Shown here: piece by piece, positions 1 through 13,396 of the stretch
How the letters are laid out: every line of letters begins with the position of its first letter
How positions within the stretch are numbered: the first letter of the stretch is position 1
Source: an uncultured Candidatus Nitrosotenuis sp.
Lineage (GTDB): Archaea; Thermoproteota; Nitrososphaeria; Nitrososphaerales; Nitrosopumilaceae
Assembly: GCA_964616415.1 (NCBI GenBank)
Contig: CAZTUP010000006.1
Location: 155,129 to 195,128, forward strand
Length of the DNA stretch: 40,000 nucleotides
Reading direction: 5' to 3'
Position numbers and translations under genes: made by a program
The notes under the pieces: generated by a model
Told to the model about the DNA's origin: nothing
Databases searched by the model: none
What the model saw: only the letters and a program-made list of their open reading frames with translations

Positions 1-5
1 TAGAG

Positions 6-866
6 TTGCAGCTTGGATTTTTAGAAAAATTCCAACCACAAAAGATTCAACAAAATAATGTGATATTTTGCGGCAGCGGGGATTCATTATGTGCAGCACT
101 GCTTGCTGAATCATTTTCTAATTATGTGGTACGGGCCCATGACCCACTCGAACTGGCAAAAAACAAATCTCTGGGAAGATCAAAGCACGCCTACTTTGTG
201 TCAATATCTGGCAATACGATATCTACTATTCGTGCGGCAAAGACTGTGCGTCATTCCACTGCAATAACTAGGAACTCACACAGCAAACTTGGCAAAACCT
301 GTGATGGTATGATACTGCTTGACTATGTTGACTCGCAGATTCTAAGCTCTGGCAGCATTGGGTTTTTGGCAAGTGCATTAACGTGCATCTCTTTGGTGCA
401 TGACTTTAAAATACAAAACGCAAAAAAACTATTCCAATCTGCAAAATCGCACACAAAGAAGATCATTCCAAAAAATCAGATCTATTTTCTTGGCAACCAA
501 TACACCTACCCTATTGCAATGTATGCATCTGCAAAACTAGGTGAGATTTTGGGAATGGATTCTCACTATGAGCGAATAGAGCAATTCTCACACATGGGAC
601 TTTTCTCTGCAAGACCTGGCGATACCGTGATTATATTTGAGCAAACAAATTCTCATATTGCGTCTCTGGTATCGAATCTAAGAAAACTTGGACTGTACGT
701 GCATAATCCGTCAATTCCATCCAAAAACAAAATAGATCAAATTTTGTATTACACATTTGTCTCGCAATTCATCTCATTGTATTTGGCGCGCAAAAAAAGA
801 ATCAAGGATTGTTATTTCATTACGCAAAAGAAAACTCGAGCTGCAAGTTCTGCAATGATCTACTAA
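6..866 (+). CDS. SIS (phosphosugar isomerase/binding) domain protein with two SIS-like modules; 5' end may be cut by the window edge
   Basis: ORF 6..866. It has an N-terminal SIS-like 'VIFCGSGDSLCAALLAE...YFVSISGNT' and a second module 'IYFLGNQYTYPIAMYASAKLGE'. The frame stays open to position 3, so the TTG at 6 may not be the true start. Confidence 0.55.
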   Translation: MQLGFLEKFQPQKIQQNNVIFCGSGDSLCAALLAESFSNYVVRAHDPLELAKNKSLGRSKHAYFVSISGNTISTIRAAKTVRHSTAITRNSHSKLGKTCDGMILLDYVDSQILSSGSIGFLASALTCISLVHDFKIQNAKKLFQSAKSHTKKIIPKNQIYFLGNQYTYPIAMYASAKLGEILGMDSHYERIEQFSHMGLFSARPGDTVIIFEQTNSHIASLVSNLRKLGLYVHNPSIPSKNKIDQILYYTFVSQFISLYLARKKRIKDCYFITQKKTRAASSAMIY

Positions 867-933
867 ATTTTTCAAAAAATCGATCTTTTTTTAATAAGAT
901 TTAATACCCCTCCGAAAAGAAATCCAATCAAAT

Positions 934-3126
934 ATGAAGTACAAGGCAACTGAGCAGATCCTAAAGATCATCAAAAACAAGGAAAACATCCGTAACTTTG
1001 GTGTAATTGCTCACGTAGACCATGGAAAGACAACCATGAGTGACAACTTGCTGGGCTATGCAGGAATCATCTCACCTCAGGCTGCAGGTCGTGCGCTGGC
1101 CTTGGACTCTATGAAGCTTGAACAAGACCGTCAGATGACAATTGTTCAGGCAAACGTTACACTACTTTTCGAAAAAGCCGGTCAGGAATATGTCGTAAAC
1201 ATGATTGATACACCAGGACACATTGACTTTACAGGACGTGTCACCAGAAGCCTCAGGGCAATCGATGGCGCAGTCGTGGTATCTGATTCTGTAGAAGGTA
1301 TAATGACACAAACTGAAACTGTAACTCGACAGGCCCTAGAAGAGCGAGTCAGACCAGTTTTATACATCAACAAAATCGACAGACTCATCAAAGAGCTAAG
1401 ACTTACTCCTGAGAAAATGCAGGAATGGCTTGCAAACATTGTTTCTACTTTTAATGGATTAATCGACACATATGCAGAACCTGAATACAAGGAAAAATGG
1501 AAGGTCTCAATTCAGGATGGCTCTGTTTCATTTGGCTCTGCAAAGGACAGATGGGGATTCAATATCGACATCATGAAGGAAAAAGGAATCTCATTTAAGG
1601 ACATTTACGCAGCATACCAAGACGGCGCAAACGTTGATGATCTAGCAAAGAAAGCACCGCTGGCAGAAGCAGTACTTGGAATGGTTGTAAAGCACCACCC
1701 ACCACCACACGTTGCACAAAAATACAGAATTCCAAAAATCTGGAAAGGTGACTTGGAGTCTGATATTGGGAAAGCACTTTTGAATTGTGATGATAATGGT
1801 CCGGCAGTAATGATGATTGTAAACATGGCAATGGACCCTGCGGCAGGACCTGTCGCAATTGGGCGATTGTTCTCTGGAACCCTAAAAGATGGAATGCAGG
1901 TGCATCTAATTGATACTAAAAGAGAAGGCAAAATCCAATCTGTGAACTTTTTCATGGGCAACCAAAGAGAAATGGTCGGAGAACTGGGTGCTGGAAACAT
2001 TCCAGCTTTATTGGGACTAACTGAGGCCAGAGCAGGACAGACTTTGGCTACAGTCAAAGATGTTGCAATATTTGAGGGAATCAAATATGTCTCAGAGCCT
2101 GTCGTACAAATCGCAGTAGAGGCAAAATTCCCAAAAGACTTACCAAAACTTGTGGAAGCACTGCGTAGAATTACAATTGAGGATCCAAACCTTGTGGTAA
2201 AAATCAACGAGGAAAGCGGAGAGACTGTAATTGCTGGAATGGGCGTATTGCACTTGGAAATTGCTACCTCGCTAATTGGTGATGCCGGCGTTCAAATTGT
2301 AACATCGCAGCCTTTGATTAACTATAGAGAAACCATCCAGAGCGGCTCTGAAGTTGTAATGTCAAAATCACCAAACAGACACAACAAGATCTTTATGAAA
2401 GTAGAACCACTAGAACCAGAAATTGCTGACATGATACGAGCCGGTCAGCTATCTGAGATGAAGGACAAAAAAGAGATGGAAAATCTTTTGCGCTCTAAAG
2501 GATGGGATACTGATACTGCAAAACGTGTAATGAGATATGACTCTAGAGGAAACATTATGATCAACGGCACCAAAGGTGTCCAGTTTATCCAAGAATCAAC
2601 TGACTCTATTTTGTCTGGATTTGAGGAAGTAATGAAGGAAGGCCCACTGGCAAGAGAGCAGGTTAGAAATTGTAAATTCACATTTACTCACTTTGTTCCT
2701 CACGAGGACACTGCACACAGGGGTCTATCACAATTATCACCAGCAGCAAGACGCGCATGCATGGGTGCAATGCTAAAGGCACAACCAATACTATTAGAGC
2801 CAATGCTTGGAATCGAGGTCAGAGTACCACAGGACATGATCGGAAACGTTGCATCTGTTTTGTCTGGCAAAAGAGGCAAAGTCATGGACATGCAGCAAAA
2901 AGGTGTCACAAGCATCATAGTAGGCGAGATTCCAGCTTCTGAGACATTTGATATTTCTGAGGTAATGAGAGGCCAGACTGCCGGTAAAGCAATGTGGAAT
3001 ACACACTTTAAGGCGTGGACTCCAATGCCAAAATCAATCCAAGCCAATTTGATTGCTGAAACCAGAAAGAGAAAGGGATTACCACCAGACCCACCAACAG
3101 CAGACGAATTTATCGACAAAGAGTAA
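934..3126 (+). CDS. fusA: Translation elongation factor 2 (aEF-2), GTPase
   Basis: 730 aa. GTPase motifs are 'AHVDHGKTT' (G1), 'DTPGH' (G3) and 'NKID' (G4). The diphthamide-region 'HEDTAHRG' is typical of archaeal/eukaryotic EF-2. An A/T-rich TATA-like stretch lies at ~886-907 upstream. Confidence 0.97.
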   Translation: MKYKATEQILKIIKNKENIRNFGVIAHVDHGKTTMSDNLLGYAGIISPQAAGRALALDSMKLEQDRQMTIVQANVTLLFEKAGQEYVVNMIDTPGHIDFTGRVTRSLRAIDGAVVVSDSVEGIMTQTETVTRQALEERVRPVLYINKIDRLIKELRLTPEKMQEWLANIVSTFNGLIDTYAEPEYKEKWKVSIQDGSVSFGSAKDRWGFNIDIMKEKGISFKDIYAAYQDGANVDDLAKKAPLAEAVLGMVVKHHPPPHVAQKYRIPKIWKGDLESDIGKALLNCDDNGPAVMMIVNMAMDPAAGPVAIGRLFSGTLKDGMQVHLIDTKREGKIQSVNFFMGNQREMVGELGAGNIPALLGLTEARAGQTLATVKDVAIFEGIKYVSEPVVQIAVEAKFPKDLPKLVEALRRITIEDPNLVVKINEESGETVIAGMGVLHLEIATSLIGDAGVQIVTSQPLINYRETIQSGSEVVMSKSPNRHNKIFMKVEPLEPEIADMIRAGQLSEMKDKKEMENLLRSKGWDTDTAKRVMRYDSRGNIMINGTKGVQFIQESTDSILSGFEEVMKEGPLAREQVRNCKFTFTHFVPHEDTAHRGLSQLSPAARRACMGAMLKAQPILLEPMLGIEVRVPQDMIGNVASVLSGKRGKVMDMQQKGVTSIIVGEIPASETFDISEVMRGQTAGKAMWNTHFKAWTPMPKSIQANLIAETRKRKGLPPDPPTADEFIDKE

Positions 3127-3131
3127 AAATG
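3109..3131. repeat. Direct repeat copy 1 (casposon target-site duplication = last aEF-2 codons + stop)
   Basis: 'tttatcgacaaagagtaaaaatg' recurs exactly at 11551-11573. The outer 'aaaaatg' is shared with the TIR, so the true TSD is probably 13-16 bp ('(tt)tatcgacaaagagt'). Confidence 0.85.
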
Positions 3132-3180
3132 AGATCCCCCCGTTTTGTGCGGGAGAATCTGCTGTTTGTCGTAATGCTTA
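3125..3180 (+). repeat. Casposon left terminal inverted repeat (56 bp)
   Basis: 'aaaaatgagatccccccgttttgtgcgggagaatctgctgtttgtcgtaatgctta' is the exact reverse complement of 11498-11553, checked base by base. Confidence 0.92.
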
Positions 3181-3549
3181 AGAATTTGATTTAGCATCAT
3201 TCTGGAATTTATTAAAATATCTGTCTCTCACTAGACTGTCTCTTTTTCGACCTGCCTTTATTTGTGAAATTGACCATCTTCTCATCCAGAGTATTTTATT
3301 TTTAGTAATATAGTAATGTGATTGACATGGTAGACTCCAGTTTCCGATAGATGGATAGATTGAAACTGTTTCACCATCCCAAGTTAGTTCCCACTCAGAA
3401 GGCCTGATTGGTATTACAACGAGTTCACCGCATCCACAAGCACATCTATGTGTAGATGTAGCAAAAGGAATTGAAATGTACAGGATTCCTTCTTTTATTT
3501 CGTCAGGAATTAATTCAACAAATTCATGATTGATAGTATTTAGTTTCAT
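3178..3549 (-). CDS. DUF6527-type Cys-rich protein, candidate E2-like/zinc-binding partner of the E1
   Basis: 123 aa. The signature is 'HRCACGCGELVVIPIRPSEWELTWDGETVSIYPSIGNWSLPCQSHYYITKNKILW' (C36, C38, C40, C75, H34, H78). The start overlaps the E1 stop as ATGA (3546-3549). The stop codon lies inside the TIR. Family assignment is from memory of the family pattern, not a search. Confidence 0.7.
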   Translation of the reverse strand: MKLNTINHEFVELIPDEIKEGILYISIPFATSTHRCACGCGELVVIPIRPSEWELTWDGETVSIYPSIGNWSLPCQSHYYITKNKILWMRRWSISQIKAGRKRDSLVRDRYFNKFQNDAKSNS

Positions 3550-4733
3550 TCAATATCATCATTTACGATTTCATTACACCCAATACTATACGTAGAATAG
3601 TGCTCATTTTCTAATTTATCATAGAACCCACACATTTTCTTCCATTTGATAACTGCCATGACGGCATTTAGGGCATTAATATCGGCTATTTGAATATTAG
3701 ATGAATATTCATCATCCTCATCCCTTCCAGAAAGAATTCTTGTTTTTGCGTGTTCATAAAAAGAAGCAGTGCATGTTGTCACTTGAGTTGAGCCGGTCAA
3801 TACTTCATTCGTTTTATCAATGCCAATTCCTACGTCAATGAATCGGATCTTCTTTTCTAATAGATATCTCACGATGGATTTTCTAGATGGAATTTTATCT
3901 ACACAGACAAATACCATGTCCATTGAATCTAGTTTAGAGGCATTTGATTCAGTAATAAATTCCGGATGTGGAAAAATTTTTCGGTGCATTCTGGAATAGA
4001 TTTCTGTAAACCACTCTACTTTTGGCATACCTTTTTCCAGATCTTTTCTGGTGGGTGCACCTGGTGATCTGAACGCATTATGATAATGGAATTCATCCCC
4101 ATCGAAAAGATGGATTTCTTCCACTGGTGTTTTAGCGATAAGATCGAGGATGTATGATCCTGTTCCACCTAAACCGACTATTGCGATTCGACCTTTTAAT
4201 TTTTCATTAATTGATATGATGCCTGCGCGACTTGAGGCAGTATCATAATAATTGAAGACAGATTCTTGTTCCGTGAGTGGGGTTTGTTTAAACGTCCTTG
4301 CAGTCACACTGTCATCTATGGCACGCGCCTGATTTTCAATTAAATGTACATAGTGTTCAATTTTTTTAAAGTAATTTTCGTATTTCCCGCCTTCGGTTGG
4401 TTTTTGTGAAAAAATATGTTTAGCCACAAGTCCTTCTTTGATTTTCTCATTGTTTGCGCCCCCTCCTAAACTATTCATCTGTGAGCCATTGTGATCACAG
4501 GGATAGTCTTCAGTCCATAATATTTGATGATCGTTCGGAGTCATTTTGAAACCTGTTATTGTGGAATGTGAAATTATTGAACCTCTCAGTATCTGTTTTT
4601 TAGCATTCACATACGGTACGTTATGAATAACTACGTCACTGTTAATAATCTCGATTTCATAACCTGCATTTATGATCTGTTGTAGATCATCATTATGACT
4701 TATTAGATCTGTGAACGTCAAAGCGCATTCCAT
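3546..4733 (-). CDS. ThiF/MoeB/E1-like adenylyltransferase with ~175-aa N-terminal extension
   Basis: 395 aa. It has the Rossmann 'IAIVGLGGTGSYILDLIA', the nucleotide/Arg-finger block 'LFDGDEFHYHNAFRSPG' (compare the ThiF DxDxVxxSNLxRQ) and a Mg-Asp 'VFVCVDK'. A Cys/Ser/Thr-rich loop 'TGSTQVTTCTAS' follows. An alternative TTG start lies at codon 5. Confidence 0.85.
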   Translation of the reverse strand: MECALTFTDLISHNDDLQQIINAGYEIEIINSDVVIHNVPYVNAKKQILRGSIISHSTITGFKMTPNDHQILWTEDYPCDHNGSQMNSLGGGANNEKIKEGLVAKHIFSQKPTEGGKYENYFKKIEHYVHLIENQARAIDDSVTARTFKQTPLTEQESVFNYYDTASSRAGIISINEKLKGRIAIVGLGGTGSYILDLIAKTPVEEIHLFDGDEFHYHNAFRSPGAPTRKDLEKGMPKVEWFTEIYSRMHRKIFPHPEFITESNASKLDSMDMVFVCVDKIPSRKSIVRYLLEKKIRFIDVGIGIDKTNEVLTGSTQVTTCTASFYEHAKTRILSGRDEDDEYSSNIQIADINALNAVMAVIKWKKMCGFYDKLENEHYSTYSIGCNEIVNDDIE

Positions 4734-4941
4734 TGACTACGTTAACATGCTTTCCTTCTACAAGGGTGCCTTTAGAATTGTCAGGCCCATGCGTGTACAT
4801 GACAGCAAACATCTCATCTGCACCATGTGATGGAAATGCCAGGTTAACTACTTCTGTGTAGCTTATTGTCTCCTTTTCCCATGTCTTATGTTGACCATTG
4901 ACAAATATCTGAAATTTGTCATGATGTCCTTTATCTTCCAT
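4693..4941 (-). CDS. Single-domain multiubiquitin-type ubiquitin-like (beta-grasp) protein
   Basis: 82 aa. 'KFQIFVNGQHKTWEKETISYTEVVNLAF...GTLVEGKHVNVVNGMRFDV' matches the remembered multiubiquitin-domain pattern (xIxVNGxxxxxxxxxISyxxVvxLAF...vxxGMxFxV). It is the first gene of the operon and overlaps the E1 ORF by 41 nt. Confidence 0.7.
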   Translation of the reverse strand: MEDKGHHDKFQIFVNGQHKTWEKETISYTEVVNLAFPSHGADEMFAVMYTHGPDNSKGTLVEGKHVNVVNGMRFDVHRSNKS

Positions 4942-5054
4942 AGTGATAGTTATAGTACGATGGTAATACGTTTGTCGATCGACTGATTATTGACCTTAGG
5001 TTAGTGCTATTTTGACAACATGTAGTCATCTAGAGTTTATGAGCAACTATCATG

Positions 5055-6917
5055 TCATATTTCGCTTTCCGGCTCATACTTTTCATCCTCAAACCAATCA
5101 ATTTCCTCTTTTGATATGATATTACCGACCAAATCAATAGGAATTGGATATGAATCGCAAAATGTCCCATCATGTAAAGACTTTAGATCAGAAAACCAGA
5201 ATCTTTTCTTGTCAGAATTTAGGTTAATTTTCCTCTCATATGGTTTGATTTGACCCACCTTGCTTAGTTTATTGAACAAAATCCCTGATTTGATATGTGT
5301 AGTCCTTGTGGTCTTGACTCGGATGTAAAACTGGCCGTCCCTGTCTATTTTGGAATCAATATGCTCTATTTCCTGTCTTTTTTCATGGTCAAAGCCTATT
5401 CCACGCTTTTTCCAAATCCCATTAAAACGATAAAACCCGTTGGACAGAAAAATGGCATCCGAGCCAGATTTGTCTAATTTCATCTGTCCAAGTTCTGGGC
5501 TGTCAAGACCTTCAATTTTCTTTCTACACGCTATAGAATCTGTAGCAAAAGCCACAACATCATTTTCCAAACCATATTTTTTAACAAAAGAGTACAGTTG
5601 CGCGCGAACAAATCCAGTTACGTATGATGCAATAACCGGGTTGAACAGGTTTCCCATCATTTGATTTGTTTTCTGCGCAGTTTTGCCATAAATTGAATTC
5701 AATATGATTTTGATTGGCTGTTGTAGTGGATTGTTTTGTTGTTTTAGATGTAGTCGTTTTTGATACATTGATTCAATAAAATTCTTGAATGGGCGTATAG
5801 AATTTTTGTTTGGAATAAACTGATATGATTCTAGTATTTTGTATTGGATTTGCGGATCATTGATTGCTCTTAGCTCATCTAGTGTGACAAAAGTCTTGAA
5901 TTGTCCTGACGGATAACAAATCGTTCCGTTCTTTTTTCTAAATGGAAATGGTGCAATTTTGACCTTTGGTGATACATTCGTATGTATGTAAAAAAATCCA
6001 ATCGCTGCATTATTCAAAACGCGGTTTGCTCTAATCCACCTACCTTTAATGAAATCTTGTATGGTTGTAAGGGCATATGGGTACGCAGAATTGACATCAT
6101 ATAGATAACACTCTCCAATGAACCCGCGCCGAATTAGTTCAAATCTTCCACCATAAAACGACTTTCTTGCCATTTCTTGGACTTCGTATTCTGTTTCATT
6201 AAACAGTGGAATGTTAATTCCATTATTGATCAAGACTTTTTCTGCCAGATAACCTGCCGAAATCCAATTTGCTGAATAAAATTGGAATACATCATAAAAC
6301 GTCTTAATCCAGTGTTCTGCCAAGTCTCGCGTAAAAATACAATCTTGGATGCAATAGTCTCTAACCTGATTTTTGTGCCTAGAATAGTAGAATTTTGATA
6401 AAATATTCCGTTTTTTCTTCATTTGCAGATATTCGGAGTCTAAATTCTTGATATTCTTGGCATATGCATCAGCAAGTGGAGCATTTTCATAGTATTGTGC
6501 AATGTCATAACAGTTTATCGAGTGATGATTTTTTGAAATGGTGAGTTTTCTTCTTTCAATATAATGAATTCTAAATCCATTGTATTGAAAGCATAATTCT
6601 TTTTTCCATAGATATGATTGCAGTATTTCTTTTGGCAATAGCTTCAAAATACATTCTGCATCATATCCCAAATTGTAAAAGAAAATCCATCGTCCTTCAT
6701 GCCTGAAAAGGAATTTCACTATTGTTTCAAATGTGATGTTTTGATCTAGGTAATTTCCTTGTGAGTCGGCAATTAGAAAGATGTTTCCAATGTCAGTTTC
6801 TGTGTCAATTCCAATTATTTCCCTTGATATATCAATTCGATTTGGACTGCGATTTTGTTTTCTAACTCTGATTCCGTCTAGTGTTCTATAATTAGAAATT
6901 GGAATAAAAAAATTCAT
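5055..6917 (-). CDS. Family B DNA polymerase, protein-primed (pPolB) type
   Basis: Exonuclease motifs are 'GIDTETD' (ExoI), 'YNLGYDAECIL' (ExoII) and 'YCIQDCIF' (ExoIII). Polymerase motifs are 'YDVNSAYPYAL' (A), 'KIILNSIYGKT' (B) and 'FATDSI' (C). The start is trimmed from the track's 7052 to the ATG at 6917, which forms an ATGA overlap with the upstream gene's stop. Confidence 0.9.
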   Translation of the reverse strand: MNFFIPISNYRTLDGIRVRKQNRSPNRIDISREIIGIDTETDIGNIFLIADSQGNYLDQNITFETIVKFLFRHEGRWIFFYNLGYDAECILKLLPKEILQSYLWKKELCFQYNGFRIHYIERRKLTISKNHHSINCYDIAQYYENAPLADAYAKNIKNLDSEYLQMKKKRNILSKFYYSRHKNQVRDYCIQDCIFTRDLAEHWIKTFYDVFQFYSANWISAGYLAEKVLINNGINIPLFNETEYEVQEMARKSFYGGRFELIRRGFIGECYLYDVNSAYPYALTTIQDFIKGRWIRANRVLNNAAIGFFYIHTNVSPKVKIAPFPFRKKNGTICYPSGQFKTFVTLDELRAINDPQIQYKILESYQFIPNKNSIRPFKNFIESMYQKRLHLKQQNNPLQQPIKIILNSIYGKTAQKTNQMMGNLFNPVIASYVTGFVRAQLYSFVKKYGLENDVVAFATDSIACRKKIEGLDSPELGQMKLDKSGSDAIFLSNGFYRFNGIWKKRGIGFDHEKRQEIEHIDSKIDRDGQFYIRVKTTRTTHIKSGILFNKLSKVGQIKPYERKINLNSDKKRFWFSDLKSLHDGTFCDSYPIPIDLVGNIISKEEIDWFEDEKYEPESEI

Positions 6918-7279
6918 GGACTTGGATTGCGCCAAGCCACATCTGGAATGTCTGTTTCCAGTCCTTGTTTGTGCTTTTTGAATGCGGAACGAATTTCTTT
7001 TAGCGACATGTCGATTGGATAATTTTCCTTGATTGCTTTGAAGTATCTCCAAGATGTCTTCATTTTGGCAGAGCGATTCTCGTTTGCCTTGATTAATCGT
7101 TGGATTACATCCTCTGTGGTTTTGGTCATTTTGGCAATCTTGGCGTTAAGGACACTTTTTTCGCCTTCCAATTGTCGTCTGAACTTTTTTAAAAACGCAG
7201 TCTCTCGAAATTCAGAGAGACGTTCGATTTCTTTTGTTATTCGTTCTATTTCGCTTCGTAGTTTTTCTAGTTTAGTCAT
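6914..7279 (-). CDS. Hypothetical coiled-coil/basic protein translationally coupled to PolB
   Basis: 121 aa. It has an N-terminal heptad-like 'LEKLRSEIERITKEIERLSEF' and a basic C-terminal half. Its stop overlaps the PolB ATG. Confidence 0.55.
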   Translation of the reverse strand: MTKLEKLRSEIERITKEIERLSEFRETAFLKKFRRQLEGEKSVLNAKIAKMTKTTEDVIQRLIKANENRSAKMKTSWRYFKAIKENYPIDMSLKEIRSAFKKHKQGLETDIPDVAWRNPSP

Positions 7280-7313
7280 TAACTAGTTTTATAGTACTAT
7301 ACTCTATGAAGAA

Positions 7314-7964
7314 GTGATAGAGCTAATGGCAAAATCTAGTGAATATACGCGAGAATTAAGTGAAAAACAAATCAAAACTTTACAAGCCAGATACAAGGGT
7401 TACATAAAACGCACTAGACGTGGATTCCTATCAACCAGTGAAAAAGAAAAACTGCTAAAAATCAGAAAATGGCAAGAGTCAGATGCTGAGATCTCTCAGT
7501 TTTTTTATGAGGTTAGAGAGAGTGCAAAAACTGCTTTTACTGACTTTGTGTTATTATGTGACACGTTAAATGAAAAAGAAATCGAGAGCATATTTTCAAA
7601 CAATTATTCTAAAACAGAATTATCCAAAATGCCAGACAGCATGAATTTCGAATTAATGGAACAGTATTACAGAAGTCATCCAATATTCAAAGATGTAATA
7701 CGATATATATTACAGGATCGTTCTGTTGTATCACTAAGTAATGTCAAGTCAGCAAAGAAATTAGAATTATTTTTGGATGATTCGTGGCAGGCCTATTTGG
7801 CACATGACTTGATTCGAATATGTTTGCAGTTCTTTAGGGAACACGGTTTTATTTCTACAAAAGCTCATGAACGACTTGCAGAAGAAGTGGAAGACATGAT
7901 AAATGTGGAAGTGTCACGCGGAATCAAACTAAAAAGACATGAGCGAACCAAAGGTTTTGTTTAG
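7314..7964 (+). CDS. Hypothetical protein (casposon cargo)
   Basis: 216-aa ORF divergent from the PolB operon. It starts at GTG 7314 or ATG 7326. No recognisable motif. Confidence 0.5.
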   Translation: MIELMAKSSEYTRELSEKQIKTLQARYKGYIKRTRRGFLSTSEKEKLLKIRKWQESDAEISQFFYEVRESAKTAFTDFVLLCDTLNEKEIESIFSNNYSKTELSKMPDSMNFELMEQYYRSHPIFKDVIRYILQDRSVVSLSNVKSAKKLELFLDDSWQAYLAHDLIRICLQFFREHGFISTKAHERLAEEVEDMINVEVSRGIKLKRHERTKGFV

Positions 7965-8008
7965 ATCAAAGATCAAATACTATTCATTCGCATATTTCAT
8001 TATCAAAG

Positions 8009-8260
8009 ATGTTCAGGTTTGTACGAAAATATAGGAAAATAAACGAAGATAACAGAAAACTAGTCGTTACGAATCAAGAATGGATACCGGATCATCAGGC
8101 GGACTTAGAGTGTGAAGAAGCAATCATCGAAGATAGACGCCGATTCGGCAGAGTACGGACACATCTAATGAGGCATTTACGACAGAAATATGGCTCCAAG
8201 ACGGCAAATAGGGCAATGTGGAGAGTAGGTAAACGAGGATCGAGAGATTCACGAGTATGA
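8009..8260 (+). CDS. Hypothetical small basic protein (casposon cargo)
   Basis: 83-aa Arg/Lys-rich ORF on the same strand as 7314..7964. No motif recognised. Confidence 0.4.
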   Translation: MFRFVRKYRKINEDNRKLVVTNQEWIPDHQADLECEEAIIEDRRRFGRVRTHLMRHLRQKYGSKTANRAMWRVGKRGSRDSRV

Positions 8261-8337
8261 ATCGTTTTAGTGTTGCATCATTTCAAATTAATTTCGATTT
8301 TTATAATAATGATCTAGAAAATATGAGTCCAAATACA

Positions 8338-9630
8338 TCACCGTATTAATTTTTGAGATGTGACAAGATATTTTTTGATCATGGTATTTTTTGGGTCTAA
8401 TTTTAGTGCCTTGTTATACCATTTTATTGCATCTTTGTGTTTTCCTAGATTACCTAATGCTATACCTTTGTTGCCAACTAGGACTGAATTATTTGGAACT
8501 AGTTTCAGTGCCTTGTTATACCACACCAAAGATTGTTTGTCTTTGTGAAGATAACCTAAAGCTGTACCTTTATTCATAAGCGCAGTTGCATCTTTGGGGT
8601 TGATCTTTAGTAGCTCATCTGAACAGATTATTGTTTCCTCATATTTTTGTAGTTTAAGTAATGCGGTGCTTTTGTTTGCAAGGGCGTTTGAATTTTTTGG
8701 TTCATTTTTCAAAGTTTTATTAAAAAATTCTAATGCTTTCTTATGCATACCTAAACTCCCAAATGCAGCTCCAATATTGTTTAGGGTAGTAATATCTTTA
8801 GGATTAATCTTCAGTGCCTTGTTATACCACTTTAGGGCCTCTCGAGGTTTGCCCAAGTTAAACAATGCAAATCCGATACTTCGTAGTGTAATGGCATCAT
8901 CTGAGTTTAGTTTCAAGGATTTATGAAACCACTTTAGGGCTTCACGGTGTTTTCCTAGATTACCTAATGCTATGCCAATAGCACCGACCGTTATCGCATC
9001 ATCTGAGTTTAGTTTCAAGGATTTATGAAACCACTTTAGGGCTTCACGGTGTTTGCCAAGTTTATCTAATGCGAGTCCAATGTTTGATATTACGATCGCA
9101 TCTTTAGGATTAATCTTCAGTGCCTTGTTATACCACTTTAGCGCCTCCTTGGTTTTCCCTAGGCGAGATAATACAACACCTGTGTTAACTGTCGAATTCA
9201 GATGTTTCGGATTGATGTTCAGCGCTTTTTCAAAATATTTCAAAGCAGCACGTAATTTACCCGACTCCCCAAGTTTAACTCCCTTGTAGGATAATGTACT
9301 TACATCACGCGGATTGAGCATAAGTACACGATCAAAATATTTCATAGCATGTTCAGGTTTATTCAATTTGGAGAATACAACTCCAATGCCACGTAATGCG
9401 TCTAAATTATTTGGATCATATTGCAAAATCTTACTGCCCAAAGTAAGAATTTTGTCATATCGTTTAATTTCAAACATATAATTAATTTGTTTTAATGCTG
9501 TTTGCAGATCAAAAGGTGCTCCCATCTCAGTATTCTTCAAAGATGATTCTAATCGATCAATTTTGCTTTCCAATTTAGACATCTTTAATTGTAATTTTTT
9601 TGGAATTCGTGTTCTTGTTTTCTGAATCAA
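8338..9630 (-). CDS. Tetratricopeptide (TPR) repeat protein, ~10 repeats
   Basis: 430 aa. It has a 34-aa periodicity with recurring 'EALKWYNKALKINPKD', after an N-terminal coiled-coil. Confidence 0.85.
   Translation of the reverse strand: MIQKTRTRIPKKLQLKMSKLESKIDRLESSLKNTEMGAPFDLQTALKQINYMFEIKRYDKILTLGSKILQYDPNNLDALRGIGVVFSKLNKPEHAMKYFDRVLMLNPRDVSTLSYKGVKLGESGKLRAALKYFEKALNINPKHLNSTVNTGVVLSRLGKTKEALKWYNKALKINPKDAIVISNIGLALDKLGKHREALKWFHKSLKLNSDDAITVGAIGIALGNLGKHREALKWFHKSLKLNSDDAITLRSIGFALFNLGKPREALKWYNKALKINPKDITTLNNIGAAFGSLGMHKKALEFFNKTLKNEPKNSNALANKSTALLKLQKYEETIICSDELLKINPKDATALMNKGTALGYLHKDKQSLVWYNKALKLVPNNSVLVGNKGIALGNLGKHKDAIKWYNKALKLDPKNTMIKKYLVTSQKLIR
8894..9054. repeat. Tandem 102-bp-period duplication inside the TPR gene (59 bp identical core)
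   Basis: 8894-8952 and 8996-9054 are identical ('gcatcatctgagtttagtttcaaggatttatgaaaccactttagggcttcacggtgttt'). Both encode 'GKHREALKWFHKSLKLNSDDA'. Confidence 0.85.
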
Positions 9631-10136
9631 TTTGAACGCTCCAAGTTAAGATCCGGTTTTACCTCAGTCATAACATTATGAGAGTCCAAGATCTTATTCA
9701 ACTCTTCAATGGATTCCTCATATTCAAACGCTTTATTGACTGCTTCAAGATTTTGTTCTAAGAACTTTTCTAATTTCTTTGGATTATTCTCCAAAACAAT
9801 CAAGGTTGTTTGTAAGGCATATAACTTTCCTAACACTTTATCTCTACGTCTAAGATGTATTGTCCTTTCTATAGTTCCGAATCCATACATTTTTGCACTC
9901 TTACATTGATCAAACTGAAAATCATCCATTAAAATTGCAAGCGCTGATGCTTTTCGATTAATTTTCTTTGTTACTTTAAGATTTGAAAATTTGAATATTG
10001 TTGGAATTTCTCCATCCATAGAAAAATCAGTACTTCTCCAAGGATATTCTTTCTTACAACAGAGCTTATCCCTTCTAAATAATCCCACGAATTTAAAATA
10101 TATCTCATTTTTATAAGCATGATCTAAAATTGACAT
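9627..10136 (-). CDS. Hypothetical protein downstream of cas1 (casposon)
   Basis: 169-aa ORF. It overlaps the cas1 3' end by 26 nt and the TPR gene start by 4 nt. No motif recognised. Confidence 0.5.
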   Translation of the reverse strand: MSILDHAYKNEIYFKFVGLFRRDKLCCKKEYPWRSTDFSMDGEIPTIFKFSNLKVTKKINRKASALAILMDDFQFDQCKSAKMYGFGTIERTIHLRRRDKVLGKLYALQTTLIVLENNPKKLEKFLEQNLEAVNKAFEYEESIEELNKILDSHNVMTEVKPDLNLERSN

Positions 10137-11190
10137 TAATACAAGAATTACGAAAATCCTGAATCATATTTTTAACAATAGTAATTTCTTGACACATTGA
10201 CATCCCATCCTCCCTTTTCAATCCATGTTTGAATTCATATGGTCTTTCAGACTGGAATTTCCTTTCTAATACTTCCAAGAACCTTCGAATCAGATCAGAA
10301 TCCATTACAACATTTCCATCTCTAGTATGAGTGTAATCCTTGAATCGTATTCCGTTCCTATCAAGAATAGAGAATTTGTAAACCGAATATTCAACTAACC
10401 AGCGAAAAGGTTCTATCAAATCATACACTAATGCTTGAAACGAGGTGTCTTGTTTATGATAAAACCCATAGTAAGGATCAAGACCCAAACCATTGATAAA
10501 CTTGGCAATCTCACCAGCTAATACAGTATAACCATAATTCAAGAGCGCATTGATCACATTTGAGGCATAGCGTTTTGAATTGACAAGACCACCGCCACGC
10601 CTAGATGAAAAGCCATGTCTTGCAGGAATGAGTTTGGTATAATTTAGAAAATAGTATCTTCCGCTTCCGGCTTCAATCTTGATTAATTCCTTGAGGTCTG
10701 TCTTTGAATCAATTTGAGAATGACACTGTTCCAGTTTTGAGATTCCATTTTGTAATTCTGGGTTTTCTAAAGATTTGAAGAAATTGATTTGAGATTGGAT
10801 TTTCTCTTTTAGAATCCATTTTTGTAATTGCAATACTTTGATTGGATCTCGAAATGTGTCATACTGACCCATCCTGTATTTTATTGCGGTATTGGAAACC
10901 ATTCCACCATTCATGAAGGAAACTGGATTGCCGTAGGTGTCAGTTAGAATTACGTTGATGTTGTTTTGGTTTAGAATGGAGATTGCTTCTGTGGAAACGT
11001 AGCCTTTTCCAGAGATTACAATTTTTTCGTAGGGAATTTTGGATACAAACCATTCCTCTTTACTCGAGATTCCTGTAATGTCATTTTGACCATTTTTTAG
11101 AATGAGTTTGTTATCTTTGACATTTATAGAAATTCCATAACCACGAAGCAATTTGACGTTATAGTGATTACGTTTACCACCTAAAGTCAA
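10111..11190 (-). CDS. cas1: Cas1-family integrase (casposase)
   Basis: 359 aa with a TTG start. The overall Cas1 layout is an N-terminal beta-domain 'NHYNVKLLRGYGISINVKDNKLILK' and a C-terminal helical catalytic domain ('LIEPFRWLVE'). It lies next to a TIR with no cas2 or array, which is the context typical of casposons. Confidence 0.85.
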   Translation of the reverse strand: MTLGGKRNHYNVKLLRGYGISINVKDNKLILKNGQNDITGISSKEEWFVSKIPYEKIVISGKGYVSTEAISILNQNNINVILTDTYGNPVSFMNGGMVSNTAIKYRMGQYDTFRDPIKVLQLQKWILKEKIQSQINFFKSLENPELQNGISKLEQCHSQIDSKTDLKELIKIEAGSGRYYFLNYTKLIPARHGFSSRRGGGLVNSKRYASNVINALLNYGYTVLAGEIAKFINGLGLDPYYGFYHKQDTSFQALVYDLIEPFRWLVEYSVYKFSILDRNGIRFKDYTHTRDGNVVMDSDLIRRFLEVLERKFQSERPYEFKHGLKREDGMSMCQEITIVKNMIQDFRNSCINVNFRSCL

Positions 11191-11192
11191 GT

Positions 11193-11477
11193 CTATAATT
11201 TGTCGATTTTACGAATGATTTGTTGTTGTATAATAACAAGTAAAATCATCCCAACTGCAAATAGAAAAATTCCAAATTGCGAATAAACGCTACCAATTAT
11301 TGTAAATAGTTTTATCTCCTCTTCTGCCTTTGAAGTAGCATCCAAGCCAATTGTGACACCCAAAATAAATAATGAGGCTCCAAAAATCGCAATAATAGAT
11401 CCAGTAGTTGTTACTACAGTTAATTGTGCATTTAATTTTGCAAGTTTTTTATCAAAATCATACCTATCCATTAACAA
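11193..11477 (-). CDS. Small membrane protein (2-3 TM) between right TIR and cas1
   Basis: 94 aa with hydrophobic segments 'IIAIFGASLFILGVTIGL' and 'FGIFLFAVGMILLVII'. It ends 2 nt before the cas1 start. Confidence 0.5.
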   Translation of the reverse strand: MLMDRYDFDKKLAKLNAQLTVVTTTGSIIAIFGASLFILGVTIGLDATSKAEEEIKLFTIIGSVYSQFGIFLFAVGMILLVIIQQQIIRKIDKL

Positions 11478-11497
11478 GTATTATCAATTGCAAACAA

Positions 11498-11553
11498 TAA
11501 GCATTACGACAAACAGCAGATTCTCCCGCACAAAACGGGGGGATCTCATTTTT
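11498..11553 (-). repeat. Casposon right terminal inverted repeat (56 bp)
   Basis: Exact reverse complement of 3125-3180. Confidence 0.92.
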
Positions 11554-11573
11554 ATCGACAAAGAGTAAAAATG
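11551..11573. repeat. Direct repeat copy 2 (target-site duplication; non-coding copy of the aEF-2 3' end)
   Basis: Identical to 3109-3131. Confidence 0.85.
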
Positions 11574-11621
11574 CAAAGCCCCCCCTCTTGGGCACAAAAA
11601 CTGAAGCTATTTCGTTATGAC
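11567..11621 (+). repeat. Degenerate TIR of a second, decayed casposon
   Basis: 'aaaaatgcaaagccccccctcttgggcacaaaaactgaagctatttcgttatgac' aligns by eye at roughly 60% with the intact TIR. Shared pieces are 'aaaaatg', the C6-7 run, 'ctg' and 'tttNcgtNatg'. It sits in the position expected for a TIR beside the TSD. Confidence 0.5.
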
Positions 11622-11686
11622 TAGATTATGACGTTAGTTAGGATTTGTTGGAAATCTGATAAATACAATATTGATTCTTTATTATT

Positions 11687-11974
11687 GTGGTTAAACAGGC
11701 TCCAGTAAGCATTGGATGGCAAACTGCGATGATCTTTATCCCGTATGCTTGGATTTACGGATTTTATAGAATTGAAAAACTCAGATTAGGCCTTGTTCTC
11801 CTGTTAATGGATTTTGGAATTACACTTGGAGCCAACATATTGTTTACTTGGCTTGGTTTTCCACCATATACAGTACTTGCAGTATGGATCGTTGTAGTCA
11901 TTTCATTGCCAGTTCGTTTCATACGAAAATGGTCTCGTGAATGGAATAGTAAATTTTCGTCTAGTGTATCTTGA
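11687..11974 (+). CDS. Small membrane protein (remnant casposon), syntenic with 11193..11477
   Basis: 95 aa with a GTG start and 2-3 TM segments. Its stop TGA overlaps the TTG of the cas1 fragment. Confidence 0.45.
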   Translation: MVKQAPVSIGWQTAMIFIPYAWIYGFYRIEKLRLGLVLLLMDFGITLGANILFTWLGFPPYTVLAVWIVVVISLPVRFIRKWSREWNSKFSSSVS

Positions 11975-12068
11975 CACTAAAAGGAAAGAAAAATCACTAC
12001 AATGTAAAATTTCTCAAAGGCTACGGTCATTCTGTTTCCCTCAAAGACAACAAAATAATTTTGAAAAT
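11971..12068 (+). pseudogene. cas1: Truncated cas1 (first ~32 codons only)
   Basis: 'MTLKGKKNHYNVKFLKGYGHSVSLKDNKIILK' matches the intact casposase N-terminus 'MTLGGKRNHYNVKLLRGYGISINVKDNKLILK' at 23/32 residues. Similarity stops abruptly at ~12068. The rest of track ORF 11971..12240 is unrelated low-complexity sequence. Confidence 0.8.
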
Positions 12069-12089
12069 GATCAATACCACTTCTAGTTT

Positions 12090-12263
12090 CTACATGTGTT
12101 TATCAAGAAAGCATTTTTCACATACTGTGCTGTCTAACCGGCTCATTGCAAATTCAATCTGTTTTTTATCTAGTCGCCCATGCTGTATGGTATTCAGAAG
12201 TTTCTCTTTATCAATTGGCTCAAACTCTTCATTACAGTGACATTTTTCACACTGACATTTCAT
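12090..12263 (-). CDS. Small Cys-rich (zinc-finger-like) protein, 57 aa, absent from the ORF track
   Basis: Hand translation gives MKCQCEKCHCNEEFEPIDKEKLLNTIQHGRLDKKQIEFAMSRLDSTVCEKCFLDKHM. It has a CxCxxCxC cluster plus CxxC. It lies antisense to the non-homologous tail of ORF 11971..12240. Confidence 0.4.
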   Translation of the reverse strand: MKCQCEKCHCNEEFEPIDKEKLLNTIQHGRLDKKQIEFAMSRLDSTVCEKCFLDKHM

Positions 12264-12314
12264 ACTAGTAACTAGTCAGAATAATTTATAATACATTTTT
12301 CAAAACCAGATTCA

Positions 12315-12479: not shown

Positions 12480-12665
12480 TATTATTTTTGCACCAGATAC
12501 TTTTTGCCCTTTAATTCCAAGTCAATTCTGTCAATATCTGATATCGTTGGCTCGGAGCTTGTCATTTTATGATACATGCGTGTGGTTATGACCATGTTCA
12601 TACCAATCCACAAAATACCATAATAGAGATATGTTGTTCAAATTATGCAGACACTGTAGGACACA

Positions 12666-12917: not shown

Positions 12918-12945
12918 TATTTACAAATAATCTTGGTTTGGTGGT

Positions 12946-13365: not shown

Positions 13366-13396
13366 TCTCTAAAAAGACCATACACAATACCAATCC

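What the first reader, a model, noticed from the sequence alone, without database searches (positions are those of the whole stretch)
3109..11573. Apparently intact casposon with perfect 56-bp TIRs inserted exactly at the aEF-2 stop codon
What the sequence shows: 3125-3180 is the exact reverse complement of 11498-11553. The 23-bp string 'tttatcgacaaagagtaaaaatg' (aEF-2 codons F-I-D-K-E-stop plus 5 nt) flanks both ends. Because the TIR itself starts 'aaaaatg', the real TSD is probably 13-16 bp. Under that model, the aEF-2 TAA stop (3124-3126) is built from the last TSD base plus the first two TIR bases.

Established knowledge: thaumarchaeal family-1 casposons (Krupovic et al. 2014) carry a pPolB and Cas1 and were reported to target the 3' end of the aEF-2 gene. 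Casposase generates TSDs of about 14-15 bp.

Inference: zero mismatches across 56 bp, together with full-length cas1 and polB, suggest a recently active element.
Basis: partly seen in the sequence, partly recalled or inferred. Interest (0 to 1): 0.65.

Follow-up and report, generated by a model that had tools for sequence, protein, structure and literature searches.

The report
Intact casposon carrying a Bub operon
This is a complete, apparently recently inserted self-replicating transposon (a family-1 casposon) sitting exactly at the end of an essential translation gene of an ammonia-oxidising archaeon; the type is already known, but this copy carries a ubiquitin-like protein-tagging operon as cargo and sits next to the wreck of an older casposon.

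Summary
Bases 3125-3180 and 11498-11553 are perfect inverted repeats, and a 23-bp direct repeat flanks them. The element (3125-11553, 8429 bp) is an intact family-1 casposon in a Candidatus Nitrosotenuis chromosome.

It encodes:
- a casposase without an HTH domain, 59% identical to that of NitEve-C1;
- a full-length protein-primed PolB;
- the conserved small genes of the family.

By homology with the AR1 casposase target, the true duplication is 13 bp (ATCGACAAAGAGT). The T of the aEF-2 stop codon comes from the duplication and the AA from the repeat.

Four metagenome contigs encode the identical aEF-2 protein and lack the element, so the empty site is seen directly.

1. The cargo at 3178-4941 is a complete Type II Bub operon (BubA, BubBD, BubE). 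The same operon abuts a casposon repeat in three other contigs.
2. The sequence right of the element is the remnant of an older casposon: a repeat followed by a 32-codon cas1 stub.
3. The gene between that relic repeat and the stub differs among near-identical alleles.

Verdict: a new member of a known kind, with a cargo I found no report of in casposons.

The parts
934..3126 (+). aEF-2 gene (730 aa), the target gene. Its stop TAA (3124-3126) is T from the duplication plus AA from the left inverted repeat.
   Evidence: Pfam GTP_EFTU, EFG_III, EFG_IV and EFG_C. The identical protein occurs on four casposon-free contigs.
3109..3111 (+). TTT 'leader' triplet immediately upstream of the duplicated site
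   Evidence: Read from the sequence. TTT is the minimal leader required by the AR1 family-1 casposase (PMC8464041).
3112..3124 (+). Left copy of the 13-bp target site duplication, ATCGACAAAGAGT
   Evidence: Direct repeat. Present once in the empty-site contigs L001-L004. Homologous to the experimentally defined AR1 duplication ATTGATAAAGAGT, with A1, A11 and T13 conserved.
3125..3180 (+). Left terminal inverted repeat, 56 bp, tip AAAAATGAGATCCCCCC
   Evidence: 100% complementary to 11498-11553. The tip resembles the NitDev-C2 repeat tip (reverse complement of GGGGGTAAACCATTTTT) and those of L005 and L009.
3178..3549 (-). BubE (DUF6527 serine protease, 123 aa). Its stop codon lies in the inner edge of the left repeat.
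   Evidence: Pfam PF20137, E 2.6e-23. The CxCxC...C motif and the Ser/His positions are conserved with homologues.
3546..4733 (-). BubBD (E2-E1 fusion, DUF6791 + ThiF, 395 aa)
   Evidence: Pfam. S109, K111, R222 and Y343 are invariant in 24 homologues. These lie close to the numbering of E. coli S106, R219 and Y342; the E. coli sequence itself was not aligned.
4693..4941 (-). BubA (Multi_ubiq ubiquitin-like protein, 82 aa)
   Evidence: Pfam PF14452, E 2e-11. The 41-nt overlap with bubBD is also present in the Nitrosotalea operon.
5055..6917 (-). [quoted passage not shown]
   Evidence: Pfam DNA_pol_B_2. Colinear over its full length with the pPolBs of L005 and L009 (56% identity), with exonuclease and polymerase motifs conserved. 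PHROG DNA polymerase.
6914..7279 (-). Conserved 121-aa gene overlapping the pPolB start by 4 bp; candidate terminal protein
   Evidence: 50% identical to the equivalent gene in L005. Its position matches the candidate terminal protein gene proposed in PMC4046053. The function is inferred.
7314..7964 (+). Conserved 216-aa casposon gene of unknown function
   Evidence: Homologue in L005 (25% identity, E 1.8e-13).
8009..8260 (+). 83-aa gene of unknown function, also seen in another casposon
   Evidence: 44% identity over 55 aa to a gene beside cas1 in L080.
8338..9630 (-). TPR-repeat protein (430 aa), element-specific cargo; source of the 102-bp tandem repeats
   Evidence: Pfam TPR_1, E 5e-74. 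Tandem repeats.
9627..10136 (-). 169-aa gene of unknown function
   Evidence: ORF only. No Pfam, PADLOC or PHROG match.
10111..11190 (-). Casposase (Cas1 family, 359 aa, TTG start, no HTH domain)
   Evidence: Pfam Cas_Cas1, E 1e-48. 90% identity to the casposon Cas1 in L005 and 59% to the NitEve-C1 casposase. E173, H245, D257 and E260 are invariant. Best PDB match 6opm.
11193..11477 (-). 94-aa predicted membrane protein in the variable slot between cas1 and the right repeat
   Evidence: ORF. The same slot holds DUF4760 in L005 and HNH in L009.
11498..11553 (+). Right terminal inverted repeat, 56 bp
11554..11566 (+). Right copy of the 13-bp target site duplication
11567..11625 (+). Relic inverted repeat of an older casposon (AAAAATGCAAAGCCCCCCCTCTTGGGCACAAAAACTG...). 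Not part of the intact element; approximate end.
   Evidence: Also present in the 'empty' alleles. It belongs to the same repeat family seen after the aEF-2 stop in 30 of 70 species genomes and is absent from several lineages (Nitrosopelagicus, Cenarchaeum, most Nitrososphaerales loci). It holds the only other C-run of at least 6 in the window.
11687..11974 (+). 95-aa membrane-protein gene in the relic's variable slot
   Evidence: Replaced by a HEPN_AbiV gene in L001 and by a 192-aa gene in L002, between flanks 94-99% identical in L002 and 81-98% in L001.
11971..12066 (+). Relic cas1 stub: the first 32 codons of a casposase, TTG start
   Evidence: tblastn 69% identity to the intact Cas1, E 1.4e-10. 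The same stub is in L001 and L002.

Best explanation
The segment 3125-11553 is an intact family-1 casposon in a Candidatus Nitrosotenuis chromosome.

Inferred from the AR1 biochemistry:
- Its Cas1-type casposase recognised the motif TTT|ATCGACAAAGAGT|AAA formed by the last codons of aEF-2.
- It made staggered cuts 13 bp apart and joined the 3' ends of the inverted repeats to them.
- Gap repair duplicated the 13 bp.

Shown by the sequence:
- Each inverted repeat begins with AA, so the aEF-2 stop codon TAA is rebuilt and the essential gene is unchanged.
- The repeat tips (AAAAA.../...TTTTT) recreate the TTT and AAA flanks at both junctions, so each copy of the duplication is again a full target. 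This fits the tandem arrays seen elsewhere and the position of this element beside an older relic.

Inferred replication: the element's protein-primed PolB copies it, probably primed by the product of the small gene overlapping the polB start.

Shown cargo:
- A complete Type II Bub operon lies next to the left repeat, with all catalytic residues conserved.
- A TPR protein and several proteins of unknown function are also carried.

Inferred cargo role: the Bub operon is a host-beneficial defence or stress module that favours retention of the element. This role has not been demonstrated even for the bacterial systems.

Timing: perfect repeats and duplication, intact genes, and empty-site alleles in the same population (about 98% identical flanks) together indicate a recent insertion.
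For: Structure of the element:
- Perfect 56/57-nt inverted repeat and 23-nt direct repeat.
- aEF-2, Cas1, pPolB and Bub domains.

Empty site:
- Contigs L001-L004 encode the identical aEF-2 protein, lack the element and carry one copy of the 13-mer.
- Their flanks are 97.9-99.4% identical to the window.

Target site:
- The AR1 casposase duplication is 13 bp, and a TTT leader plus A1, A11 and T13 are required (PMC8464041). All are present here.

Relatives:
- The closest casposases (89-90% identity) lie in casposons at aEF-2, in both orientations and with other cargo.
- The casposase is 59% identical to that of NitEve-C1.
- NitDev-C2 has a 13-bp duplication and the same repeat tip.
- pPolB is full-length and colinear with its relatives.
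- The conserved small genes are shared.
- Invariant residues are retained in the casposase and in BubBD.

Exclusions: no CRISPR array, no virion genes.

Bub cargo:
- The operon abuts a casposon repeat in L012, L093 and L094.
- The closest homologues lie in defence-rich neighbourhoods.
Against: - Only one copy of this exact element was found. Its Cas1 and BubBD sequences occur on a single contig in the protein collection, and a 32-nt stretch of the repeat has no exact match in JGI metagenomes.
- Presence/absence alone cannot tell a recent insertion from a precise loss in the other strains.
- cas1 starts with TTG rather than ATG. The relic stub does the same, so this looks like a lineage trait rather than a lesion.
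- The AR1 'ATAA' ruler motif reads ACAA here.
- pPolB motif C reads ATDS rather than DTDS, but this is also so in both relatives.
- Mobility, protein priming and any Bub function are untested. The Bub authors found no phage protection in E. coli.
Confidence: 0.9

Rival explanations
1. The element is a genuine casposon but is no longer mobile. It is a fixed, intact-looking resident, and the casposon-free alleles arose by precise loss (recombination between the 23-bp direct repeats) rather than the window allele arising by recent insertion.
For: - Only a single copy is known.
- 23 bp of perfect direct repeat could support deletion.
- Decay of casposons at this site is common: fragments in many genomes, and a complete element with a second copy of the duplication in only one of 70 species genomes.
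Against: - Zero mismatches in 56-bp repeats and in the duplication.
- All core genes are full-length with invariant residues.
- The element lies on the aEF-2 side of a decayed relic, as expected for the latest arrival at a reusable target.
Confidence: 0.12
2. The element is an integrated virus or linear plasmid with a protein-primed polymerase that merely uses a Cas1-like integrase, and is not a transposon-like casposon.
For: pPolB matches phage and archaeal-virus polymerase families (PHROG 11768, E 3.6e-59). Several element genes have no known function.
Against: - No capsid, packaging or other virion gene was detected.
- At 8.4 kb the gene set is that of family-1 casposons.
- By the published definition a self-synthesising element integrating by Cas1 is a casposon (PMC4046053).
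Confidence: 0.04
3. The Cas1 gene is a leftover of a CRISPR adaptation module, and the repeats are unrelated to it.
For: Public annotations call the homologues 'CRISPR-associated protein Cas1'.
Against: - No CRISPR array in the window.
- No cas2 or other cas genes in the element.
- The homologues sit in pPolB elements bounded by inverted repeats at aEF-2.
- The best solved structure is 6opm, which to my knowledge is the M. mazei casposase.
Confidence: 0.01
4. Assembly chimera: the 8.4 kb was joined to the aEF-2 locus by mis-assembly across repeated repeat/target sequences.
For: The locus holds repeated repeat-like sequences (new and relic) that can confuse assemblers.
Against: - Both junctions obey the exact rule of 13-bp duplication plus repeat.
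- Independent assemblies of related genomes show the same architecture (L005/L006/L007 and L009).
- The flanks on both sides are colinear with the casposon-free contigs.
Confidence: 0.02

Closest known systems
NitAR1-C1 (Ca. Nitrosopumilus koreensis AR1), the biochemically characterised family-1 casposon
   Same: - HTH-less casposase plus pPolB.
- Insertion at the 3' end of aEF-2.
- An apparent direct repeat of about 22-23 bp whose real core is a 13-bp duplication preceded by TTT.
- A1, A11 and T13 of the duplication conserved (PMC8464041; PMC4046053).
   Different: - The duplication is ATCGACAAAGAGT here against ATTGATAAAGAGT, so the ATAA 'ruler' reads ACAA.
- The 3' end of the repeat is ...CATTTTT here, against a TTCTA motif reported for AR1.
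- The AR1 casposase is not among the 120 best matches, so identity is below about 58%.
- Different host genus and different cargo.
NitDev-C2 (Ca. Nitrosotalea devanaterra) and the unnamed casposons in L005 (MAG GCA_964449865.1) and L009 (JGI 3300036760)
   Same: - Same target (EF-2) and same 13-bp duplication.
- Same repeat tip: AAAAAT, then 4-5 variable bases, then a run of C.
- For L005 and L009: casposase 89-90% and pPolB 56% identical, and the small genes upstream of polB are shared with L005 (the 121-aa gene also with L009).
   Different: - None carries Bub genes. Their cargo is DUF4760 proteins, an HNH nuclease or an AAA-associated protein.
- The polB module is inverted relative to cas1 in L005.
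- L009 is inserted in the opposite orientation.
NitNF5-C1/C2 tandem casposons (Ca. Nitrosopumilus adriaticus) and tandem family-2 casposons of Methanosarcina mazei
   Same: Re-use of the same target, giving neighbouring elements (PMC6563490). Here an intact element lies directly beside a relic, and L094 shows two repeats back to back across one 13-mer.
   Different: The neighbour here is reduced to a repeat, one slot gene and a 32-codon cas1 stub. The presence/absence comparison used for M. mazei is applied here to a family-1 element, using metagenome contigs.
Type II Bub (6E.2 / DUF6527) operons, e.g. E. coli ZDHYS365 (bioRxiv 10.1101/2024.11.21.623953)
   Same: - Gene order BubA, BubBD, BubE.
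- DUF6791+ThiF fusion with invariant Ser, Arg and Tyr at numbering close to the E. coli catalytic residues.
- DUF6527 protease.
- Location in mobile elements and defence loci.
   Different: - The host is archaeal and the carrier is a casposon.
- BubA is a single 82-aa domain ending ...NGMRFDVHRSNKS rather than in a C-terminal glycine.
- No CapW or CapH/CapP regulator gene was detected beside it.
Bub trios in thaumarchaeal integrated elements NitDev-E2 and NitNF5-E1
   Same: The NitDev-E2 operon is the closest relative: 84% DNA identity over 1.8 kb and 81-89% protein identity. Both trios were catalogued in 2019 only as 'ThiF' plus hypothetical proteins.
   Different: NitDev-E2 is listed there as integrated at tRNA-Arg, not as a casposon. 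No casposon repeat follows bubE in the NitDev-E2 copy.
Tn7 at attTn7 (glmS)
   Same: Site-specific insertion that reads the 3' end of an essential, conserved gene and lands without damaging it. The analogy was drawn in PMC4046053.
   Different: The transposition machinery is unrelated. Here the insertion point lies inside the stop codon, which the repeat rebuilds.

Membership tests
Family-1 casposons | Cas1-family integrase (casposase) with no extra HTH or zinc-binding domain, grouping with family-1 casposases | tested here: met
   - Pfam Cas_Cas1 covers residues 18-309 of 359, with no other domain.
- 59% identity over 98% of the length to the casposase of NitEve-C1, a published family-1 element.
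- 89-90% identity to Cas1 of pPolB elements at aEF-2.
- No formal phylogeny was built.
Family-1 casposons | [quoted passage not shown] | tested here: met
   Pfam PF03175 DNA_pol_B_2, E 5.5e-27. 620 aa, colinear with casposon pPolBs, with the exonuclease DxE motif, DVNSAYP, KIILNSIYGK and ATDS present.
Family-1 casposons | Terminal inverted repeats bounding the element | tested here: met
   56 bp, 100% complementary. The tip is shared with NitDev-C2, L005 and L009.
Family-1 casposons | Target site duplication generated on insertion | tested here: met
   The 13-mer is present twice in the window and once in the empty-site contigs. The 13-bp length is assigned by homology with the AR1 experiments, not measured here.
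Family-1 casposons | Conserved small genes next to pPolB (three in PMC4046053; three or four in PMC6563490) | tested here: met
   The 121-aa and 216-aa genes have homologues in L005 (the 121-aa gene also in L009). The 83-aa gene has one in L080. Identity with the published arCOGs was not checked.
Family-1 casposons | Insertion at the 3' end of aEF-2 without altering the gene (usual, not universal) | tested here: met
   The aEF-2 protein is identical with and without the element. The stop codon is rebuilt from the duplication and the repeat.
Family-1 casposons | No association with a CRISPR array or other cas genes | tested here: met
   No CRISPR-like tandem repeats in 40 kb. No other cas domains among the genes scanned.
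Family-1 casposons | Casposase-catalysed integration and self-synthesis | not testable with these tools
   Needs biochemistry. Only conservation of the invariant residues E173, H245, D257 and E260 was shown.
Type II Bub (6E.2) operon | BubA ubiquitin-like protein | tested here: met
   Pfam Multi_ubiq, E 2e-11.
Type II Bub (6E.2) operon | BubBD E2-E1 fusion with catalytic Ser (E2), adenylation Arg and crossover-loop Tyr | tested here: met
   DUF6791 + ThiF. S109, K111, R222 and Y343 are invariant in 24 homologues. They lie at numbering close to E. coli S106, R219 and Y342; the correspondence rests on position, as the E. coli protein was not aligned.
Type II Bub (6E.2) operon | BubE DUF6527 protease with C4 zinc site and Ser-His dyad | tested here: met
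   PF20137, E 2.6e-23. CACGC...C, and the Ser and His in ...PSIGNWSLPCQSH..., are conserved in four homologues. Residue equivalence to Citrobacter S92 and H102 is inferred, not aligned.
Type II Bub (6E.2) operon | Exposed C-terminal glycine on the ubiquitin-like protein | tested here: inconclusive
   BubA ends ...NGMRFDVHRSNKS in all five thaumarchaeal copies. A conserved Gly lies 11 residues from the end, so processing may be needed.
Type II Bub (6E.2) operon | Protein conjugation activity and an antiviral or stress role | not testable with these tools
   Context only. The relatives sit beside Hachiman, type I restriction-modification, GmrSD and Schlafen-like genes. The role is unproven even in bacteria.

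The most novel reading that the evidence does not exclude
Family-1 casposons may act as site-specific shuttles and exchange points for defence cassettes in ammonia-oxidising archaea.
- One lineage has captured a Type II Bub ubiquitin-like conjugation operon in the bay next to the repeat. It has carried the operon to at least three kinds of site: aEF-2, a tandem position, and the 3' end of a class-I aminoacyl-tRNA synthetase gene that offers the same TTT-A...A.T-AAA motif.
- Even decayed relics at aEF-2 (a repeat plus a cas1 stub) keep swapping the gene in the bay on the cas1 side. The swap could occur by insertion of a new casposon followed by recombination between the cas1 5' ends.
Probability: 0.4. 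Interest if true: 0.6.

Novelty: new member of a known kind. Interest (0 to 1): 0.45.

Why it matters
Casposons are the presumed ancestors of the CRISPR adaptation machinery, yet few intact copies are known and evidence of natural mobility is scarce.

- **A substrate for experiments.** This locus gives a family-1 element with its exact empty site from the same population. It therefore supplies a ready set of target, inverted repeats and casposase for integration assays. Its target is a natural variant (ACAA instead of the ATAA ruler), which can test the published ruler model.
- **Bub operons outside bacteria.** Bub ubiquitin-like operons are so far described as bacterial. Here they occur in archaea and ride on casposons, which adds a cargo class to these elements. 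It also supports the still unproven idea that Bub systems are mobile defence or stress modules.
- **A hotspot of insertion and decay.** In a census of 70 species genomes, the 3' flank of aEF-2 in Nitrosopumilaceae carries casposon repeats or gene fragments in about 30. Annotators should not read this flank as native intergenic sequence.

Tried and rejected
- **Other copies of this element.** An exact 32-nt stretch of the repeat was searched in JGI metagenomes, looking for other sites or an excised form. No match.
- **PADLOC (2023).** It has no Bub models. It gave only weak E1-E2 matches for BubBD and nothing for BubA or BubE. The cargo was identified through Pfam and the 2024 preprint instead.
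- **Partner repeat for the relic.** I looked for a right-hand partner of the relic repeat and another copy of the duplication downstream of 11574. None was found, so the relic is one-ended.
- **Native target signal versus relic.** I considered that the repeat-like sequence after the right duplication is a native target signal recognised by the casposase. I rejected this in favour of a relic for three reasons. A cas1 stub follows it. Several lineages (Nitrosopelagicus, Cenarchaeum, most Nitrososphaerales loci) lack the sequence entirely. And the similarity runs about 55 bp into the repeat.
- **The gene beside the L012 repeat.** I tested whether it is aEF-2. It is not; it is a class-I aminoacyl-tRNA synthetase.
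- **Negative checks.** No tRNA genes, no CRISPR arrays, no virion proteins.
- **Bub in other aEF-2 casposons.** No Bub genes occur in any of the 80 aEF-2 loci from species genomes.

Full report
**1. The observation**

The repeats are real and exact.
- The repeat finder reports arms 3124-3180 and 11498-11554, 57 nt and 100% complementary, 8317 nt apart.
- The 23-mer TTTATCGACAAAGAGTAAAAATG occurs at 3109-3131 and 11551-11573. It occurs nowhere else in the window at up to three mismatches, with none expected in shuffles.
- The ORF 934-3126 carries all the domains of elongation factor 2. It ends ...F-I-D-K-E-TAA, with the stop at 3124-3126.

**2. Anatomy of the element**

Between the repeats lie eleven genes. 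Read from the aEF-2 side they are:

| Coordinates | Strand | Gene |
|---|---|---|
| 3178-3549 | - | BubE (DUF6527) |
| 3546-4733 | - | BubBD (DUF6791 + ThiF) |
| 4693-4941 | - | BubA (Multi_ubiq) |
| 5055-6917 | - | protein-primed PolB |
| 6914-7279 | - | 121-aa gene overlapping the polB start by 4 bp |
| 7314-7964 | + | 216-aa gene |
| 8009-8260 | + | 83-aa gene |
| 8338-9630 | - | 430-aa TPR protein |
| 9627-10136 | - | 169-aa gene |
| 10111-11190 | - | Cas1 |
| 11193-11477 | - | 94-aa membrane protein |

- The ORF list starts polB at an upstream TTG. Alignment with two relatives puts the real start at the ATG at 6917, giving 620 aa. The protein is colinear throughout, with the exonuclease and polymerase motifs present.
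- Cas1 keeps the residues invariant in 21 relatives, including E173, H245, D257 and E260.
- The window has no CRISPR array and no tRNA gene. No virion protein was detected.

**3. Empty site**

I looked up the exact aEF-2 protein in public assemblies. Four metagenome contigs (L001-L004) carry it without the 8.4 kb.
- Their DNA is 97.9-98.5% identical to window 1-3141.
- It is 98.3-99.4% identical to window 11989-14392.
- The site reads ...GAATTTATCGACAAAGAGTAAAAAT..., with a single copy of the repeat.

**4. Size of the duplication**

Pairing the direct repeat with the inverted repeat allows duplications of 11 to 19 bp.

For the family-1 casposase of Ca. N. koreensis AR1, an apparent 22-bp repeat was shown by sequencing integration products to be a 13-bp duplication, ATTGATAAAGAGT. 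It is flanked by a TTT leader, and A1, A11 and T13 are critical (PMC8464041).

The homologous 13-mer here is ATCGACAAAGAGT (3112-3124 and 11554-11566). It is preceded by TTT and keeps A1, A11 and T13. On this reading:
- the stop codon is T from the duplication plus AA from the repeat.

The AR1 'ATAA' ruler reads ACAA here, which is worth testing.

**5. Why the direct repeat is 23 bp**

The 3 bp on the left are the TTT leader, matched by the T-run that ends the right repeat.

The 7 bp on the right (AAAAATG) are shared with the sequence that already followed the site. That sequence is itself a casposon repeat, on this evidence:
- It continues AAAAATGCAAAGCCCCCCCTCTTGGGCACAAAAACTG..., and the empty alleles have the same kind of sequence.
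- C-runs of six or more occur in the window only in the two repeats and here.
- A 32-codon cas1 stub, 69% identical to the intact casposase (E 1e-10), lies about 400 bp further on, at 11971-12066. The same stub is in L001 and L002.

So the intact element sits in tandem with the relic of an older casposon that was inserted in the opposite orientation. No right-hand repeat of the relic survives.

**6. Census of the site**

I scanned one genome per species with aEF-2 and obtained 80 loci. The closest is 98% identical, a Candidatus Nitrosotenuis MAG, so the host belongs to that genus.
- Of 70 loci with enough downstream sequence, 30 have a repeat-like sequence directly after the T of the stop codon (AAAA plus a C-run). 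Nitrosopelagicus, Cenarchaeum and most Nitrososphaerales loci do not.
- Many loci carry Cas1 or PolB fragments downstream.
- Only one (L031, the same contig region as L005) has a complete element with a second copy of the 13-mer.

Intact elements are therefore uncommon. The aEF-2 flank is a site of repeated insertion and decay.

**7. Family membership**
- The casposase has 1081 relatives. The closest non-self ones (89-90% identity) lie in pPolB elements at aEF-2, in both orientations and with different cargo.
- P0117 (59% identity, 98% coverage) is the casposase of the published family-1 element NitEve-C1, as its neighbours show: a HEPN gene and pPolB (PMC6563490).
- NitDev-C2, another published EF-2 casposon, has a 13-bp duplication and the repeat tip GGGGGTAAACCATTTTT. 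This is the same tip as here.
- The best match among solved structures is 6opm, which to my knowledge is the M. mazei casposase.
- Every testable defining feature of family 1 is met.

**8. The cargo**

The three genes next to the left repeat have the gene order and domains of a Type II Bub (formerly 6E.2) operon: a ubiquitin-like protein, an E2-E1 fusion and a DUF6527 serine protease (bioRxiv 10.1101/2024.11.21.623953).
- In an alignment of 24 homologues S109, K111, R222 and Y343 are invariant. They lie at numbering close to the E. coli catalytic residues S106, R219 and Y342; the E. coli sequence itself was not in the alignment.
- The closest relative (87% protein and 84% DNA identity over window 3199-4997) is in Ca. 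Nitrosotalea devanaterra, beside Hachiman and type I restriction-modification genes. It lies in the element catalogued as NitDev-E2, where it was annotated only as ThiF plus hypothetical proteins.

The link with casposons recurs:
- In L093 the operon is preceded by the last 27 codons of a pPolB. It is followed by a degenerate repeat and a 13-mer-like sequence.
- In L094 it is followed by a repeat, the exact 13-mer and a second repeat. DNA homology to the window runs from inside the left repeat (3139) to 5010 at 82% identity.
- In L012 it is followed by a clear repeat and the motif TTT-ATTTATAATGAGT-AAA at the 3' end of a class-I aminoacyl-tRNA synthetase gene.

No Bub gene occurs in the other 80 aEF-2 loci. 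I found no paper that links casposons with ubiquitin-like systems.

The biological role of Bub is unproven. Its authors saw no phage protection in E. coli.

**9. Mechanism**

Shown:
- the architecture;
- the empty site;
- conservation of the catalytic residues;
- preservation of aEF-2.

Inferred from AR1 biochemistry and from the casposon model of PMC4046053:
- the casposase nicks both strands 13 bp apart at TTT|13-mer|AAA and joins the 3' ends of the repeats;
- pPolB replicates the element, probably primed by the product of the 121-aa gene.

Because the repeat tips are AAAAA.../...TTTTT, each junction again reads TTT|13-mer|AAA. This explains how the site is re-used.

**10. Verdict**

The finding is real and correctly interpreted. 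As a kind of element it is already known: the family, the target gene, the duplication length and tandem insertion have all been published.

New here:
- a Nitrosotenuis host;
- direct filled-versus-empty evidence for a family-1 element;
- a Bub operon as recurrent casposon cargo;
- a relic whose slot gene varies among near-identical alleles.

Interest is moderate.

Noticed in passing
window 11657-11988 (compare L001 12278-12910 and L002 12281-12902): The gene between the relic repeat and the cas1 stub differs in three alleles whose flanks are otherwise close (94-99% identical to the window in L002; 81% over the relic repeat and 98% downstream in L001). It is a 95-aa membrane protein in the window, a 193-aa HEPN_AbiV protein in L001 and a 192-aa membrane protein in L002. 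All three share the same truncated cas1 stub, so the cassette was exchanged after the truncation. One possible route is insertion of a new casposon followed by recombination between the cas1 5' ends.
   Followed up: partly
L012 7150-7245 (MAG GCA_025450795.1): A Bub operon followed by a casposon repeat abuts the stop codon of a class-I aminoacyl-tRNA synthetase gene. The end of that gene offers TTT-ATTTATAATGAGT-AAA, the same leader, A1, A11 and T13 pattern as the aEF-2 site. It looks like an alternative target chosen by motif.
   Followed up: partly
window 11188-11190 and 11971-11973: Both the intact casposase gene and the relic stub begin with TTG. The closest relatives in L005 and L009 begin with ATG at the same codon.
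   Followed up: no
window 8338-9630: The casposon's TPR gene contains eight 102-bp (34-codon) repeats. Two neighbouring units are 91% identical, which suggests recent internal duplication. No relative of this gene was seen in the other casposons examined.
   Followed up: no
window 4693-4733; also L011 10001-10041: bubA and bubBD overlap by 41 nt in the window and in the Nitrosotalea operon. All five thaumarchaeal BubA proteins examined end ...NGMRFDV(H/F)R(S/T)(N/D)KS rather than in glycine, so the ubiquitin-like protein may need C-terminal trimming.
   Followed up: partly
window 14180-17443: A 1087-aa protein with at least eight fibronectin type III domains lies about 2.6 kb downstream of the casposon locus, after a cupin gene.
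   Followed up: no
window 26343-38343: The rest of the window is ordinary chromosome: purine biosynthesis genes (PurP-like DUF1246/DUF1297, an AIR-synthase-related FGAM synthase subunit, amidophosphoribosyltransferase, SAICAR synthetase), TatC, an O-methyltransferase and a glucose/sorbosone dehydrogenase.
   Followed up: partly
L011 (Ca. Nitrosotalea devanaterra LN890280.1, 503282-524469): The closest Bub operon lies in a dense defence neighbourhood: Hachiman HamA plus helicase, type I restriction-modification HsdRSM, a CARF-domain protein and a Cas4-like nuclease. It sits at the very end of the tRNA-Arg integrated element NitDev-E2.
   Followed up: partly
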